DNA of 39,227 nt from a virus. Under the pieces are notes generated by a model. The model was given only the letters and a program-made list of their open reading frames with translations, searched no databases and was not told the DNA's origin. Made by a program: the position numbers and the translations under genes. Below, one piece after another: positions 1-39,227 of this stretch. The stretch is from the IMG/VR virus record IMGVR_UViG_3300045988_042791, positions 1 through 39,227 of that record. One strand, given 5' to 3'. Every line of letters starts with the position of its first letter. Position 1 is the first letter of the stretch.

Positions 1-41
1 TCTGGCGGTTTCCAAAAGTGCCTCCAGCGGGACTCGAACCC
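1..41. repeat. attL core: 41-bp direct repeat identical to 39187-39227 (may extend beyond the window edges)
   Basis: Exact 41/41 match read at both ends. It carries a tRNA T-arm plus acceptor 3' half on the minus strand (GGGTTCGAGTCCCGCTGGAGGCA). Confidence 0.9.
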
Positions 42-1929: not shown

Positions 1930-2646
1930 TTAACCGAGTTTTCCGATGATCTGTTTTTCTTTATCGTTGAGAGGCCATACGGTCACATCCTCCGCAGCCT
2001 TCAGTTCCGCAGCCTTCAGTTCCGCAGCCTTCAGTTCCGCAGCCTTCAGTTCCGCAGCCTTCAGTTCGCTCATCAGATAGCCGCCGCCGAAGATGGACTT
2101 CTTCACGGCCTTCTGCGAAGCGAGCCTAGGCGTGAATGCCACGTCCGAAGCCTTGACGCGAAAATCCACGCCAGCCTTGCCGACCTTATTCAGTCGTGTG
2201 ACGGTCAACAATTCCGGCGGATACGCATACTTCGGCAGATGTTTCCTGCTTTCGCGCCTGACTCGTTTCGCCGTATCGTTGACCAGCTTCGTCAGATCCG
2301 GTGCGGTGCGGATCAGATCATCGCCGAAACTCGTCACGAAGCTGGTGTTGACGATGGCGCCGTTGGCGTATTCGATCGCGCAATCAGTGACCAGCATATG
2401 CGCGCCGTTGCGCGACGTGCTGTTGAAAATCGTGAGGTTCGGCGCGAACAGGAAGAACGGAATACCACGGTCACGATAGAACGTGCATATCTTCGACAGA
2501 ATCGAGAACGGCGGATTATCCACCACCACCTTGCCGTCCGAATAGTCGAAACTCTCGTAGTCGCCGCCCGGATAGAATGGTCGCACCACCTTGCTGGGTT
2601 CGATGCCATACTCACGGCATGCCCAGTCCTTTATCGCCTCATACAC
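1930..2646 (-). CDS. N6-adenine-type DNA methyltransferase, main body (out of frame with its N-terminus)
   Basis: VVVDNPPFS is the (D/N)PP(Y/F) catalytic motif. The first residues, VYEAIKDW, continue the upstream CYTPP fragment if one C is added. Confidence 0.85.
   Translation of the reverse strand: MYEAIKDWACREYGIEPSKVVRPFYPGGDYESFDYSDGKVVVDNPPFSILSKICTFYRDRGIPFFLFAPNLTIFNSTSRNGAHMLVTDCAIEYANGAIVNTSFVTSFGDDLIRTAPDLTKLVNDTAKRVRRESRKHLPKYAYPPELLTVTRLNKVGKAGVDFRVKASDVAFTPRLASQKAVKKSIFGGGYLMSELKAAELKAAELKAAELKAAELKAAEDVTVWPLNDKEKQIIGKLG
1992..2066. repeat. Perfect 15-bp tandem repeat x5 (CCGCAGCCTTCAGTT), encoding (ELKAA)5 in the methyltransferase
   Basis: Five identical units read directly. 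The unit length is a multiple of 3. Confidence 0.95.
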
Positions 2647-2879: not shown

Positions 2880-3158
2880 TCAATCACGGCGCAGCGGATT
2901 GTAGGCCACGCCGAGACCGCTGGCGATGAAGCCGGCCACAGTCGAAATGTAGCCTCCGACCGCAGCGTCGCCGAAGGTCATGAAACCCAAGCCGACGCAT
3001 GAAGCGATGAGACCGGCAACGTAGACCACGGTGCGCACGCCCTTGGAAAAGACGGGCGTGTAAGCCGTCGGCGGCTGGTTGTCCTGACCATCCTCGCACT
3101 CGTTGGTCAGGTTGTTGACGGTGGTTTCCAAAGTCGTTGGCGCTGCATGTTGAGCCAT
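2880..3158 (-). CDS. Putative holin (two TM segments)
   Basis: 92 aa with two hydrophobic helices in the C-terminal half. Lies immediately downstream of the endolysin. AAGGGGGG RBS. Confidence 0.6.
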   Translation of the reverse strand: MAQHAAPTTLETTVNNLTNECEDGQDNQPPTAYTPVFSKGVRTVVYVAGLIASCVGLGFMTFGDAAVGGYISTVAGFIASGLGVAYNPLRRD

Positions 3159-24746: not shown

Positions 24747-25055
24747 TTAGTCGTTTGTGTTGATCCATTGTCGGCTTAGTGTGCCGATGGGCGTTGGTGG
24801 GTCTTGGTTGCTTCTGAGTCGGTTGCAGCTGGTGTGGCTTGGTCGGAAGCCTGCCGGGTCGAACTGCAGTTCGGGGTGCTTCGAGACGGGATAGAGGTGA
24901 TCGAGATTGAATGAATCATCAGTGGTGTTCTTCGGCGCCTCGTAGTCTATCGGCATTCCGCAGAGCCAGCAGACCGCATGGCTTGCCTTGCACTTTGTGA
25001 AGAATGCGGCTTTGTCTTTTTCGAATTGGCGTGTGGTCTTGCGGATTCTTGGCAT
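24747..25055 (-). CDS. HNH endonuclease (packaging-associated)
   Basis: CWLCG...DHLYPVSKHPE...SHTSCN fits the HNH/zinc pattern. Sits next to the terminase genes, as in cos phages. Confidence 0.85.
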   Translation of the reverse strand: MPRIRKTTRQFEKDKAAFFTKCKASHAVCWLCGMPIDYEAPKNTTDDSFNLDHLYPVSKHPELQFDPAGFRPSHTSCNRLRSNQDPPTPIGTLSRQWINTND

Positions 25056-25072
25056 GTGGTCACCGCCTTGTG

Positions 25073-25223
25073 TGGTGCTTCGGGTGGGAGTCGAACCCAC
25101 GACTTTGAGGAGGACACTGTTTCTTATGACGGGCATTCAAAGAATCATGGAGCCATGGCCGGTTTGGTATCCGTCCCTGGTATCTGTGCCGTCCTTTACG
25201 CTCTGCCGTTGAGCTACCGAAGC
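25073..25223 (-). ncRNA. 151-nt tRNA-like element with canonical acceptor stem, D-arm, T-arm and encoded CCA, but 98 nt in place of the anticodon arm and variable loop
   Basis: GCUUCGG/CCGAAGC is a 7-bp acceptor stem. D-arm is GCUC-AACGGCA-GAGC. T-arm is GUGGG-UUCGACU-CCCAC, followed by A-CCA. A manual scan found no 5-7-5 anticodon hairpin. Confidence 0.6.
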
Positions 25224-25233
25224 TGGATATGAA

Positions 25234-25267
25234 AAATGGTCCAAACCATTTTCTGGCTGGACCATTT
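25234..25267 (-). terminator. Terminator hairpin immediately downstream of the candidate late promoter
   Basis: Minus sense reads AAAUGGUCCA-14 nt-UGGACCAUUU followed by UUCAU. An alternative AAAUGGU-UUGG-ACCAUUU hairpin shares the same 3' arm. Confidence 0.6.
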
Positions 25268-25286
25268 CATTTTACAAACATACGAC

Positions 25287-25314
25287 AGTATAGCATTTTA
25301 ATTGTGACAGTCAA
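25287..25314 (-). promoter_or_regulatory. Candidate late promoter: TTGACT - 16 nt - TGcTATACT (extended -10)
   Basis: Read on the minus strand. It overlaps the last codons of the upstream regulator gene. It is the only strong promoter-like site ahead of the 21-kb late operon. Confidence 0.6.
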
Positions 25315-26050
25315 GCATGGCGGTTATTTCTCCGAGGTTGAACACGTACTCTCCTTTGTGTTTTGTCGGCGTGGCGTGCAGTTTGCCTCTGGTGAGCCAT
25401 TGGCGGATCTGGTCGCTGGTGCAGTGGATGTCCATTTTGGCGAGGTAGCGTGCGACTTCGACTGGTTTTCCGGTGTATTCGAGTTGCCAGAGTTTGTTGT
25501 CGCGTTCGGCTTTGATGGCTTGGACTCCGCCTTGCCATTTGCAGTCTGGGCATGTCCATGTTTCGGCTTGTGGCGTGCTGGTGGCTTGGTAGTCGCATTT
25601 TGGGCAGGTGCCGATGATGACCATGGCTTCTTCCGGGGTCAACGCTTGTTCGTTGCGTCGGACGATGTGTTCCAGGGCGGCGTAGTCATCGGCGGCGGTG
25701 CTCATCGCCAATATGGTGTGCCGGTTGCTGATGATGGCGTACCATGCTTTCCGCCAGTCGAATCCAGCGTATGCCGTTCTGATTTTCCCTGCCTGTTCGG
25801 CCAGCCAGGCTTCAGAATCTGCGATGAGGTCTTGAGCGTGGGTGTCGATTGGCAGTGGCGCGTTGCCTCGGCTTGGCGTGTGTGTTGTGGTGCCGATGCG
25901 GGCCTGACGGAGCATGATGCTGCGCAGGGCGGGCAGTTGGACGTGGCCGAGTTGGCGGATCAGCTGCCAGTAGGTTTCGCGGCAGCTGGCGCAGAGCAGA
26001 TTCGCGGCGATCGGCTTCATTGGCTTCTGGCAGTGTTTGCAGTTGGTCAA
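25298..26050 (-). CDS. Zinc-ribbon (x2) plus C-terminal HTH protein; candidate late-gene regulator/antiterminator
   Basis: TTG start overlapping the upstream stop (TTGA). Contains CKHC..CASC and CPKC..CPDC pairs and a C-terminal VARYLAKMDIHCTSDQIRQWLTRGKL HTH. It is the last early gene. Confidence 0.65.
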   Translation of the reverse strand: MTNCKHCQKPMKPIAANLLCASCRETYWQLIRQLGHVQLPALRSIMLRQARIGTTTHTPSRGNAPLPIDTHAQDLIADSEAWLAEQAGKIRTAYAGFDWRKAWYAIISNRHTILAMSTAADDYAALEHIVRRNEQALTPEEAMVIIGTCPKCDYQATSTPQAETWTCPDCKWQGGVQAIKAERDNKLWQLEYTGKPVEVARYLAKMDIHCTSDQIRQWLTRGKLHATPTKHKGEYVFNLGEITAMLDCHN

Positions 26051-39175: not shown

Positions 39176-39197
39176 AAACCGCCATTTCTGGCGGTTT
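39176..39197 (-). terminator. Rho-independent terminator of the tRNA gene, half phage DNA and half att core
   Basis: Minus sense reads AAACCGCCA-GAAA-UGGCGGUUU followed by UCCUUUUAUUU. Confidence 0.7.
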
Positions 39198-39227
39198 CCA
39201 AAAGTGCCTCCAGCGGGACTCGAACCC
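39187..39227. repeat. attR core (identical to 1-41)
   Basis: Exact 41-bp match. Confidence 0.9.
39204..39227 (-). tRNA. 3' end of a host tRNA gene (T-arm and acceptor 3' strand); the body lies beyond the window
   Basis: GGGTTCGAGTCCCGC-TGGAGGC-A on the minus strand. Isotype cannot be determined from this fragment. Confidence 0.6.

What the first reader, a model, noticed from the sequence alone, without database searches (positions are those of the whole stretch)
25073..25223. 151-nt tRNA-like RNA with perfect acceptor, D and T arms and an encoded CCA, but no anticodon arm
On the minus strand the element reads GCUUCGG-UA-GCUC-AACGGCA-GAGC-G-[98 nt]-GUGGG-UUCGACU-CCCAC-CCGAAGC-A-CCA. The 7/7 acceptor pairing, the GG-containing D-loop and the UUCGACU T-loop are canonical. 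A normal tRNA has about 22 nt (anticodon arm plus variable loop) where this element has 98. I scanned every 5-7-5 hairpin register in the insert. The best hit (UUUGA-AUGCCCG-UCAUA) has a U-U mismatch, a C at position 37, and is not adjacent to the T-arm. A simple anticodon-loop intron therefore does not explain the insert. The insert contains a near-duplication (GGACGGCACAGAUACCA / GGACGG-AUACCA) and a CCAUGG palindrome. It is not tmRNA-like, because it has a true D-stem and U3-A70 rather than G3-U70. It sits 10 nt after a terminator hairpin in the leader of the late operon, directly upstream of HNH. Possibilities are an RNase P/Z processing handle for the late transcript, a tRNA gene carrying an unconventional intervening sequence, a decoy for tRNA-targeting host or phage factors, or a degenerate relic.
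Basis: partly seen in the sequence, partly recalled or inferred. Interest (0 to 1): 0.7.

Follow-up and report, generated by a model that had tools for sequence, protein, structure and literature searches.

The report
tRNA-shaped RNA gene in Bifidobacterium prophages
A conserved 150-base gene in the late-gene leader of Bifidobacterium prophages encodes an RNA that folds like a tRNA, except that a branched extra domain replaces the anticodon arm; I found no published description of this phage RNA family, and it is probably cut out of the late transcript by the host's tRNA-processing enzymes for a job that is still unknown.

Summary
Window 25073-25223 (minus strand) has a 7-bp acceptor stem, a 4-bp D arm, a 5-bp T arm with a UUCGACU loop, and ACCA. 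About 98 nt sit where the anticodon arm should be. Rfam's tRNA model scores it at 42.9 bits (E 6e-8) only by skipping 91 nt; ARAGORN finds nothing.

It is not a one-off. I collected 73 distinct close variants (type I) and 21 of a diverged sister form (type II), all in Bifidobacterium-type prophages and all in the same slot: late promoter, terminator hairpin, element, HNH, terminase. No relative carries an ordinary tRNA there.

The T stem and the base of the long arm show compensatory changes. Blocks of the insert are far less variable than HNH third codon positions, and the reading frame is not conserved. The insert forms a roughly 10-bp helix that ends in a three-way junction with two hairpins.

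Best reading: a functional phage non-coding RNA on a natural tRNA scaffold, released from the late leader by RNase P and tRNA 3'-end enzymes. Its partner is unknown. The processing and the mode of action are inferred, not shown. It is dispensable: about 35% of the closest relatives lack it or carry deletions. I reject an intron-containing tRNA, tmRNA, Y RNA, a coding extension and a cos site. New variant of a known kind.

The parts
25287..25314 (-). Late-type sigma-70-like promoter: TTGACT, 16 nt, TG-extended TATACT. It overlaps the stop codon of the upstream 332-aa ORF.
   Evidence: 10 of 12 consensus matches. Both hexamers are nearly invariant among 101 distinct homologous regions (pi about 0.002). 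P. freudenreichii phage B3 has the same promoter-terminator-HNH layout.
25229..25270 (-). Leader hairpin followed by UUUUU (intrinsic-terminator-like), ending 5 nt before the element.
   Evidence: dG -19.9 kcal/mol, z -4.2. Some homologues (L010, L011) carry a quite different but fully paired stem.
25073..25223 (-). The tRNA-shaped RNA gene (type I, 151 nt).
   Evidence: The family model R1 scores it 139.8 bits and finds only this one full-length copy in the window.
25217..25223 (-). Acceptor stem, 5' strand (GCUUCGG).
   Evidence: Paired with 25077-25083 in all 73 type I variants except for two mismatches at pair 6-67.
25200..25214 (-). D arm: GCUC-AACGGCA-GAGC, with G18 and G19.
   Evidence: 98.9% of cells paired.
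25186..25195 (-). Long-arm base helix P1, 5' strand (AGGA-C-GGCAC), at the position of the anticodon stem.
   Evidence: Compensatory changes occur in this helix across the family.
25153..25180 (-). Hairpin 1 (CCAGGGACGG-AUACCAAA-CCGGCCAUGG). The stem is conserved in types I and II; the terminal loop and the internal loop vary.
25118..25147 (-). Hairpin 2. Its stem differs between subtypes; its loop GAAUGCCCGU (25129-25138) is nearly invariant in type I.
   Evidence: The loop is absent from type II.
25108..25117 (-). Long-arm base helix P1, 3' strand (GUGUC-C-UCCU).
25084..25100 (-). T arm: GUGGG-UUCGACU-CCCAC.
   Evidence: The T stem occurs as GUGGG/CCCAC, GCUGG/CCAGC and GCCGG/CCGGC across the family.
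25073..25083 (-). Acceptor 3' strand CCGAAGC, discriminator A, and encoded CCA.
   Evidence: ACCA is present in 66 of 73 type I variants and NCCA in 11 of 21 type II variants.
24747..25055 (-). HNH endonuclease gene, first gene of the packaging/late operon; TerS, TerL and portal follow.

Best explanation
The element is a functional, non-coding RNA gene carried as an accessory module by temperate phages of Bifidobacterium. The RNA folds like a tRNA: a 7-bp acceptor stem, a D arm, a T arm, the elbow nucleotides, and usually an encoded CCA. The anticodon stem is extended into a helix of about 10 bp that opens into a three-way junction with two hairpins, so there is no anticodon and it cannot decode.

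The gene sits after the terminator of the late-promoter leader and has no terminator of its own. It is therefore made as part of the late HNH/terminase transcript when the terminator is read through.

Inferred mechanism: the tRNA-like shell is recognised by host RNase P at the 5' end. At the 3' end it is recognised by the tRNA 3'-end machinery, either exonucleolytic trimming to the encoded CCA or, in CCA-less variants, RNase Z plus the CCA-adding enzyme. This would release a stable RNA of about 150 nt. In effect it is a natural 'tRNA scaffold' that presents the inserted domain, which carries the specific activity by binding a protein or RNA partner not yet identified.

Shown here: the fold, the family, purifying selection, the non-coding nature and the genomic position. 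Inferred: the processing, the stability and action in trans.
For: - **tRNA model hit.** 42.9 bits, E 6e-8.
- **A real family.** 73 type I and 21 type II distinct variants, always in the same slot.
- **Structure supported.** 93% of pair cells are paired, against 38% or less when the partners are slid. Five pairs show changes on both sides, including T-stem pair 143-156 as UA, CG and GC. Covariation score is 0.096 against 0.049 in shuffles, 0 of 500 shuffles as high.
- **Hairpin 2.** Its stems differ between subtypes around a nearly invariant loop.
- **Purifying selection.** In type I, 64 of 97 insert positions have pi below 0.05. Mean pi is 0.055 for the core and 0.13 for the insert, against 0.29 at HNH third codon positions. 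Type II has mean pi 0.052 against 0.23.
- **Not coding.** The distance to the HNH ATG is spread evenly over the three frames, and the frame is open through the element in only 13 of 91 type I and 4 of 24 type II regions.
- **Insert confined to this context.** The 69 other metagenome pattern matches are unrelated sequences.
- **Clean module boundary.** It falls exactly at the 3' end of the acceptor stem in recombinants that have a different downstream gene.
- **A second cargo.** Another RNA of about 175 nt in the same slot also ends in an 11-bp terminal stem followed by CCA.
- **Precedent.** M. smegmatis YrlA, a tRNA-like Y RNA, is cleaved by RNase P and receives CCA in vivo (PMC4201824).
Against: - No expression, processing or stability data exist for this RNA.
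- The minimum-free-energy fold is not unusually stable for its composition (z -1.5).
- Covariation rests on few independent events, because all sequences are close relatives. The effective sequence number of the model is 1.3.
- Type II has a C at position 55, an A-A or A-G mismatch at pair 7-66, and lacks CCA in 10 of 21 variants. It no longer scores as tRNA even at E<=10. Canonical tRNA recognition may therefore not be essential.
- The most conserved type I loop (GAAUGCCCGU) is not shared with type II.
- The element is dispensable. Of the 80 closest HNH loci, about 19 lack it and about 10 carry deletions.
- No partner was found. There is no extra complementarity to the HNH start region or elsewhere in the prophage.
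Confidence: 0.5

Rival explanations
1. A purely cis-acting element of the late mRNA. The tRNA-like fold would act as 'punctuation': an RNase P or RNase Z/E cleavage site that separates the terminator-containing leader from the HNH-terminase message. Alternatively it would stay attached as a 5' structure that stabilises the mRNA or shields the long leader from Rho. No free RNA would have a function of its own.
For: - It always lies 9-33 nt upstream of the first late gene's ribosome-binding site, with no terminator after it.
- It is absent from related phages that keep the same promoter-terminator-HNH layout, so it modifies the operon rather than creating it.
- A Propionibacterium MAG phage has a tRNA 3' end plus CCA 13 nt before its HNH ATG.
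Against: - A processing handle needs only the acceptor-T minihelix. That does not explain selection on about 64 insert positions, the three-way junction, or the nearly invariant 10-nt loop.
- Element type does not track the HNH variant or the upstream-gene variant.
- There is no extra pairing potential with the HNH start region.
Confidence: 0.2
2. A decaying tRNA pseudogene. A phage tRNA gene was hit by an insertion in its anticodon loop, and the apparent conservation only reflects recent common ancestry.
For: - All known copies are close relatives.
- About 10 of the 80 closest loci carry internal deletions, and 7 keep only the last 12 nt.
- Several variants have mismatches in the acceptor stem, the T stem (L026) or the base of the long arm.
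- Type II has lost the canonical T loop.
Against: - Diversity in the element is 2- to 5-fold lower than at adjacent third codon positions, in both subtypes, and is near zero in blocks flanked by highly variable stretches.
- Compensatory pairs occur in the T stem and in P1.
- Type II is uniform and fully paired across 21 variants.
- No relative with the uninterrupted parent tRNA was found.
Confidence: 0.1
3. A Y-RNA-like partner of a Ro60 (Rsr) protein. The tRNA-like module would be joined to a protein-binding helix at the anticodon-stem position, as in YrlA, but with unpermuted connectivity.
For: - The overall design is the same as YrlA (PMC4201824).
- An unrelated phage contig (L037) has an unpermuted tRNA-like RNA with a 68-nt replacement of the anticodon arm directly after a TROVE + vWA_Ro60 gene.
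Against: - None of the 26 window ORFs scanned (16 of them also against Pfam or by name) matched a TROVE or Ro60 family; the ORFs checked span the replication, packaging, lysis and integration regions but not every ORF.
- There is no Rfam YrlA or Y_RNA hit even at E<=10.
- No GNCGAAN0-1G motif lies near the 5' end (read directly from the sequence).
- Whether Bifidobacterium encodes Ro60 could not be tested here.
Confidence: 0.05
4. A real decoding tRNA interrupted by an intron that is spliced out.
For: The canonical acceptor, D and T arms, the elbow nucleotides and the CCA.
Against: - No conserved anticodon-loop halves. The nucleotides flanking the insert differ between variants: window AGGAC|GGCAC, most others GAGGG-AUA-GCAC, type II GGAAU-A-GCGC. 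The helix register also shifts.
- At 98 nt the insert is far below the size of a group I intron, and no intron or ribozyme family matches at E<=10.
- Bacteria lack the archaeal/eukaryal tRNA splicing endonuclease (established knowledge).
Confidence: 0.03
5. A DNA-level site (cos, terminase-binding or attachment site), or an N-terminal coding extension of HNH as annotated in public records.
For: - The element lies next to the packaging genes.
- Public HNH proteins of 129-175 aa run through it.
- One IMG/VR contig appeared to break inside the conserved loop.
Against: - Compensatory changes that preserve a cloverleaf argue for selection on the RNA.
- The reading frame is not conserved.
- The apparent contig break is a storage-chunk boundary between two loci of one contig (L019 and L216), not a genome end.
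- In the related Propionibacterium phage B3 the genome end lies downstream of HNH.
- The window's attachment repeats are at 1-41 and 39187-39227.
Confidence: 0.03

Closest known systems
YrlA-type bacterial and phage Y RNAs (Rfam RF02553; Chen et al. 2014, PMC4201824)
   Same: A non-decoding RNA with a tRNA-like module: T arm, D arm, acceptor-like stem and elbow. A functional helix takes the place of the anticodon stem. The family also occurs in phages. M. smegmatis YrlA is cut by RNase P and receives CCA.
   Different: YrlA is circularly permuted: its ends lie in the 'anticodon' helix and its acceptor stem is capped by a loop. It lies next to a Ro60/TROVE gene and carries a GNCGAAN0-1G motif. 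Here the ends are in the acceptor stem, no TROVE gene was found among the window ORFs scanned, and the model does not hit.
tmRNA tRNA-like domain
   Same: An acceptor stem plus T arm plus CCA, with a long helix leaving from the anticodon-stem position into a large functional domain. Processed by RNase P.
   Different: tmRNA has G3:U70, no D stem, pseudoknots and a tag reading frame. Here the third pair is U3-A70, there is a true 4-bp D stem, there is no conserved ORF, and ARAGORN finds no tmRNA.
Engineered 'tRNA scaffold' for recombinant RNA expression
   Same: The same design: a foreign structured RNA is inserted in place of the anticodon loop, so that the chimera is processed and stabilised like a tRNA.
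   Different: That is a laboratory construct. This would be a natural counterpart, and its processing has not been shown.
C4 (P1/P7) and CI (P4) phage antisense RNAs processed by RNase P from an operon leader
   Same: A small RNA encoded in the leader of a phage operon, with a terminal stem followed by NCCA, released by RNase P.
   Different: Those RNAs are about 77-80 nt, not cloverleaf-like, and their loops pair with sites downstream in the same transcript. Here there is no Rfam hit and no excess complementarity to the downstream start region.
Ordinary phage tRNA genes
   Same: The acceptor, D and T sequences are typical. The same 5' half occurs in normal Asn, Phe, Arg and Ile tRNAs and in a CUA-anticodon tRNA of unrelated phages.
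   Different: There is no anticodon stem-loop, the RNA is 145-162 nt long, and tRNA finders do not detect it.

Membership tests
tRNA (RF00005) | Acceptor stem (7 bp), D arm and T arm in cloverleaf order, with the conserved elbow nucleotides (U8, A14, G18G19, U54-U55-C56, A58) | tested here: met
   (42.9 bits against a gathering score of 29). The T loop is UUCGACU in 69 of 73 type I variants.
tRNA (RF00005) | Anticodon arm: a 5-bp stem closing a 7-nt loop with U33 and an anticodon | tested here: not met
   The model alignment skips 91 nt in place of 15 positions. ARAGORN finds no tRNA. No loop halves are conserved across variants.
tRNA (RF00005) | Aminoacylation and use in translation | not testable with these tools
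   Needs acid-gel or periodate assays. A73 and U3-A70 give no anticodon-independent identity that I can assign.
tmRNA | G3:U70, no D stem, and a tag ORF ending in a stop codon within a pseudoknot-rich body | tested here: not met
   Third pair is U3-A70 and there is a 4-bp D stem. ARAGORN finds no tmRNA. No conserved frame. No match to the Rfam tRNA/tmRNA clan other than tRNA.
YrlA / Y RNA | Encoded next to, and on the same strand as, a Ro60 (TROVE) gene | tested here: not met
   No TROVE or Ro60 match among the 26 window ORFs scanned against PHROGs and, for six of them, Pfam. Not every ORF was scanned. By contrast, L037 has this arrangement.
YrlA / Y RNA | Match to the YrlA covariance model; permuted order T arm, acceptor-like hairpin, D arm; GNCGAAN0-1G near the 5' end | tested here: not met
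   No hit at E<=10. The arm order is that of a normal tRNA. The motif is absent (read from the sequence against PMC4201824).
YrlA / Y RNA | Binds Ro60 | not testable with these tools
tRNA with a group I intron | An intron of about 200 nt or more with a P1-P9 catalytic core, inserted in an otherwise intact anticodon loop | tested here: not met
   The insert is 98 nt. There is no Intron_gpI or ribozyme hit at E<=10. No intact loop halves are present.
C4/CI-type RNase P-processed phage antisense RNA | Loops complementary to target sites downstream in the same operon | tested here: not met
   Natural hybrid energies between the insert and the HNH start region average -24.3 kcal/mol. Shuffled controls average -25.9 and -25.0. 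There is no match to the loop complement elsewhere in the prophage beyond chance.
C4/CI-type RNase P-processed phage antisense RNA | Terminal stem plus NCCA, located in an operon leader, cleaved by RNase P | tested here: inconclusive
   The position and the stem plus ACCA are present. Cleavage has not been tested. There is no Rfam C4 hit.

The most novel reading that the evidence does not exclude
Bifidobacterium phages use the tRNA fold as a natural expression scaffold. A slot just after the late-promoter terminator holds exchangeable structured RNA 'cargo': type I, type II, and an unrelated RNA of about 175 nt that also ends in a stem plus CCA. The host tRNA-maturation enzymes would excise and stabilise this cargo during lytic growth. 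The branched domain would then bind or sequester a host factor, for example an RNA-decay, translation or anti-phage defence protein. This would make it an RNA-based accessory or counter-defence gene of a kind not yet described.
Probability: 0.3. Interest if true: 0.8.

Novelty: new variant of a known kind. Interest (0 to 1): 0.6.

Why it matters
tRNA-like non-coding RNAs such as tmRNA, YrlA and mascRNA show that the tRNA fold is reused as a handle for processing, stability or protein recruitment. A natural RNA with normal tRNA connectivity, in which a branched domain simply replaces the anticodon loop, would be the natural counterpart of the engineered 'tRNA scaffold'. I found no description of this family in Rfam 15 or in the paper searches I ran.

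The family is common in prophages of a major human-gut genus, and at least one isolate genome carries it (B. ruminantium DSM 6489), so it is directly testable.

There is also a practical point. tRNA finders miss the element, and public annotations translate through it, producing spurious N-terminal extensions of the HNH protein (129-175 aa instead of about 102). If the cargo domain proves to target a host factor, it would add an RNA-based accessory gene class to temperate gut phages.

Tried and rejected
1. **Cos site or genome end inside the conserved loop.** The only 'cut' copy (L019/L216) is a storage-chunk boundary within one IMG/VR contig. Rejected.
2. **Antisense regulation of HNH translation.** Hybrid energies are no better than shuffled controls.
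3. **A target for the loop GAAUGCCCGU elsewhere in the prophage.** Matches are at chance level.
4. **The insert as an independent or mobile motif.** All 69 other metagenome pattern matches are unrelated sequences, many apparently coding.
5. **An ordinary tRNA ancestor in relatives.** The same 5' half occurs only in normal tRNAs of unrelated phages. None of the 80 closest HNH loci has a plain tRNA.
6. **Known RNA families.** Nothing but tRNA matches at E<=10. Type II and the alternative cargo match nothing.
7. **A coding N-terminal extension.** The frame is not conserved.
8. **Two 'tRNA-like' stretches upstream of HNH in B. platyrrhinorum (L045).** Neither ARAGORN nor Rfam confirms them.
9. **By-eye resemblances** of parts of the insert to 5S rRNA loop C, the sarcin-ricin loop, the 16S decoding site (GCCCGUCA), C/D-box UGAUGA and the Ro60 motif. 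None is conserved across variants, so I treat them as chance.
10. **The upstream 332-aa zinc-ribbon protein (phrog_908) as a Q-like antiterminator.** It has no sequence match in the PDB, so its role as late regulator remains an inference.
11. **Literature searches** for a described Bifidobacterium phage tRNA-like RNA found nothing specific. A catalogue of about 10,000 unnamed phage RNA candidates (PMC10690425) may contain it, but its supplementary tables were not available.
Full report
**1.

On the minus strand, 25223-25073 reads GCUUCGG-UA-GCUC-AACGGCA-GAGC-G-[98 nt]-GUGGG-UUCGACU-CCCAC-CCGAAGC-A-CCA.

- ARAGORN reports no tRNA or tmRNA in the window.
- A whole-window Rfam scan at gathering thresholds reports nothing.
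- A sensitive scan of 24950-25400 gives RF00005 (tRNA) at 42.9 bits (gathering score 29), E 6.4e-8. It covers model positions 1-71, with a 91-nt insertion replacing 15 anticodon-arm positions. No other family matches at E<=10.
- The minimum-free-energy fold keeps the acceptor, D and T arms. It turns the insert into a helix (AGGA/UCCU, a C-C mismatch, GGCAC/GUGUC) topped by a three-way junction with two hairpins. The overall energy is not exceptional (z -1.5).

**2. Genomic context**

The window is a complete prophage.

- It is bounded by identical 41-nt direct repeats at 1-41 and 39187-39227. These repeats are the 3' part of a tRNA gene without an encoded CCA.
- It encodes an integrase (56-1225), tail, head, TerL, TerS and HNH genes, and a replication/recombination module.
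- HNH relatives are named from Bifidobacterium pseudocatenulatum, B. breve and others.
- The isolate genome of B. ruminantium DSM 6489 carries the element (L040). So does one MAG labelled Collinsella (L042). A second Collinsella-labelled MAG (L041) has a close HNH relative (91% identity) but no element upstream of it.

Reading the minus strand upstream to downstream, the layout is as follows.

- The stop codon of a 332-aa zinc-ribbon ORF (phrog_908) overlaps a near-consensus promoter, TTGACT-16-TG-TATACT, at 25314-25287.
- A strong hairpin with a U-tract follows at 25270-25229 (dG -19.9 kcal/mol, z -4.2).
- The element starts 5 nt later.
- The HNH ATG (25055) lies 17 nt after the CCA, with no terminator between them.

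The promoter-terminator-HNH arrangement without any element is found in B. imperatoris and B. saguini prophages and in Propionibacterium phage B3. The layout resembles a lambda pR'-tR' late leader. That the element is transcribed by terminator read-through is an inference from position.

**3. It is a family, not a one-off**

Pattern scans of IMG/VR, one metagenome scan, one genome scan and a protein-guided scan gave 73 distinct close variants (type I). They are 145-162 nt long and always sit in the same slot.

I also found 21 distinct variants of a diverged sister form (type II) in the same slot. Type II differs as follows.

- It keeps the cloverleaf, the base helix and hairpin 1.
- Its T loop is UCCGACU (C at position 55).
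- Pair 7-66 is an A-A or A-G mismatch.
- Hairpin 2 is different.
- CCA is absent in 10 of 21 variants.
- It no longer scores as tRNA even at E<=10.

Among the 80 IMG/VR loci with the closest HNH genes:

| State of the slot | Loci |
|---|---|
| Full type I | 23 |
| Full type II | 25 |
| Internally deleted or truncated copies | about 10 |
| Different upstream module, only the last 12 nt of the element kept | 7 |
| No element | 12 |
| A different RNA | 1 |
| Cut by a contig end | 2 |

No locus has an ordinary tRNA there. The shared 5' half occurs in normal tRNAs only in unrelated phages. The insert motif never appears outside this context. A covariance model built from both types finds only one full-length copy in the window and none in the element-less relatives.

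**4. Structure and selection**

I counted pairs on a 94-sequence alignment using a structure I specified: acceptor, D, T, base helix P1 and hairpin 1.

- 93% of pair cells form standard pairs, against 26-38% when the 3' partners are slid by 1-3 columns.
- Five pairs show changes on both sides. These are T-stem pairs 142-157 (CG/UA) and 143-156 (UA/CG/GC), and P1 pairs 31-130 (a single sequence), 32-129 (GC/AU) and 38-124 (AU/GC).
- The covariation score is 0.096 against 0.049 in shuffles (0 of 500 as high).
- The events are few, because the sequences are closely related. The effective sequence number is 1.3.

Other structural points:

- Hairpin 2 has different stems in different subtypes (UUCUU/AAGAG; CUUUA+AUC / GAU+UAAAG; UCUUUG/CAGAGA). 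These surround a nearly invariant loop, GAAUGCCCGU.
- Hairpin 1 varies only in its terminal loop and its internal loop.
- The base of the long arm uses at least three registers, and several variants have mismatches there.

Nucleotide diversity supports purifying selection.

| Set | Region | Mean pi |
|---|---|---|
| 101 distinct type I regions | Promoter hexamers | about 0.002 |
| | tRNA-like core | 0.055 |
| | Insert | 0.13 (64 of 97 positions below 0.05, in blocks) |
| | HNH third codon positions | 0.29 |
| 25 distinct type II regions | Element | 0.052 |
| | HNH third codon positions | 0.23 |
| | HNH first and second codon positions | 0.06-0.09 |

The distance from the element to the HNH ATG is spread evenly over the three frames. 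An open frame through the element is rare. The longer 'HNH' proteins in public data (129-175 aa) are therefore over-extensions through the element.

**5. What it is not**

- **An intron-containing tRNA.** No anticodon-loop halves are conserved. The insert is 98 nt and matches no intron or ribozyme family.
- **tmRNA.** The third pair is U3-A70, there is a D stem, and there is no tag frame.
- **A member of the YrlA/Y RNA family.** No TROVE gene was found among the window ORFs scanned, the model does not hit, the arm order is unpermuted and the Ro60 motif is absent.
- **A C4/CI-like antisense RNA against the downstream start region.** Hybrid energies are no better than shuffled controls.
- **A cos site.** The one apparent break is a storage artefact. 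In the related phage B3 the genome end lies downstream of HNH.

**6. Most likely mechanism**

What is shown: a selected, structured, non-coding element with a tRNA-like shell and a branched domain, placed in the late leader. It has a clean module boundary at the 3' end of the acceptor stem, seen in recombinants that carry a different downstream gene and no CCA.

What is inferred: after terminator read-through, RNase P cuts at G1. The 3' end is made by trimming to the encoded CCA, or in CCA-less variants by RNase Z plus CCA addition. The mixed CCA+/CCA- state is what one sees for ordinary tRNA genes in many Gram-positive bacteria (established knowledge). The host tRNA gene at the attachment site itself lacks an encoded CCA. 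The released RNA of about 150 nt would be stabilised by the tRNA fold and would act through the inserted domain.

Support by analogy:

- M. smegmatis YrlA is cleaved by RNase P and receives CCA in vivo (PMC4201824).
- A second, unrelated RNA of about 175 nt occupies the same slot in six contigs. It also ends in an 11-bp terminal stem followed by CCA.

The partner of the inserted domain is unknown. Type I and type II differ most in hairpin 2, which suggests a type-specific ligand or an exchangeable part.

The main rival is a purely cis-acting processing or stability element for the late mRNA. A decaying pseudogene is unlikely for the window's copy, but it does describe the truncated copies.

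**7. Novelty**

The kind is known: a non-decoding tRNA mimic that presents another domain (YrlA, tmRNA, the engineered tRNA scaffold). This family, its unpermuted architecture, its three-way-junction cargo and its position in a phage late leader are not in Rfam 15. I also did not find them in the papers I could search. I therefore rate it a new variant of a known kind, of moderate to high interest. The main uncertainty is that all functional steps are inferred.

Noticed in passing
L280:538-685 and 20 other loci (for example L274, L276, L283-L287): A diverged sister family (type II) of the element sits in the same slot. Its T loop is UCCGACU, pair 7-66 is mismatched, hairpin 2 is different, and half the variants lack CCA. 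Rfam's tRNA model does not recognise it, yet it evolves about four times more slowly than HNH third codon positions.
   Followed up: yes
L318:~505-690; L353-L358: In six Bifidobacterium phage contigs the same slot holds an unrelated structured sequence of about 175 nt. It has its own TATAAT box and an 11-bp terminal stem (UGUCCGGCAUG/CAUGCCGGACA) followed by CCA. It matches no Rfam family.
   Followed up: partly
L037:1271-3042: A phage contig encodes a Ro60 orthologue (TROVE + vWA_Ro60) directly followed by two tRNA-like RNAs. One (2913-3039, tRNA model 47 bits) has normal tRNA connectivity and a 68-nt replacement of the anticodon arm. It may be an unpermuted kind of Y RNA.
   Followed up: partly
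L033:5064-5165 (minus strand): A sub-threshold YrlA (Y RNA-like) match of 39 bits (gathering score 69) in a 62-kb viral contig, with T arm, acceptor-like hairpin and D arm in the permuted order.
   Followed up: no
L036:2654-2779 (minus strand): A viral tRNA (49.9 bits) with a normal anticodon arm (loop CUCAAAA) and a variable arm of about 55 nt, far longer than in class II tRNAs.
   Followed up: no
L233:5507-5583; L253: A phage tRNA with anticodon CUA (amber-reading; ARAGORN labels it tRNA-Pyl). Its acceptor stem and T stem are identical to those of the window element.
   Followed up: no
L199:~323 and L203:~116: A tRNA 5' half identical to a phage tRNA-Asn (GCUUCGGUAGCUCAGAGGCAGAGCAUCUGACUGU) is interrupted right after GU of the anticodon by a long AT-rich insertion. 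This may be a group I intron. ARAGORN does not call it.
   Followed up: no
window 1-41 and 39187-39227: Identical 41-nt direct repeats bound the window. Their reverse complement is the T arm and acceptor 3' strand of a tRNA (GGGUUCGAGUCCCGC-UGGAGGC-A) with no encoded CCA. These are the attachment sites of the prophage, and the integrase gene lies at 56-1225.
   Followed up: partly
window 25283-25320 (minus strand): The late promoter carries a direct repeat of ACTGTC, next to the -35 hexamer and overlapping the -10 hexamer (TTGACTGTCAC ... TATACTGTCGT). It is invariant in about 100 homologues and follows a zinc-ribbon ORF of unknown function (phrog_908). Together with the downstream terminator this looks like a Q-type antitermination unit.
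   Followed up: partly
Public proteins P0001, P0004, P0010, P0031; window ORF 24747-25136: Gene callers extend the HNH ORF upstream through the RNA element and even through the terminator hairpin. This gives 129-175-aa 'hypothetical proteins' in place of the HNH protein of about 102 aa.
   Followed up: yes
L059:1-75: In a Propionibacterium MAG, a tRNA-like 3' part ends 13 nt before the ATG of a related HNH gene. It has a stem-loop CCAGC-CUCAAUGA-GCUGG with an 8-nt loop, a T arm and ACCA. The contig is cut, so the 5' part is unknown.
   Followed up: no
L281, L293, L304, L306, L310; L296/L297; L356/L357: Deletion and chimeric derivatives of the element. Their junctions fall at short repeats: CGGTC within the element, and GGTCGGACC against the terminator's GGTTGGACC. 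This suggests frequent microhomology-mediated rearrangement in this leader.
   Followed up: partly
window 1991-2067: A perfect tandem array of a 15-nt unit (TCCGCAGCCTTCAGT), about five copies, inside an ORF near the integrase end of the prophage.
   Followed up: no
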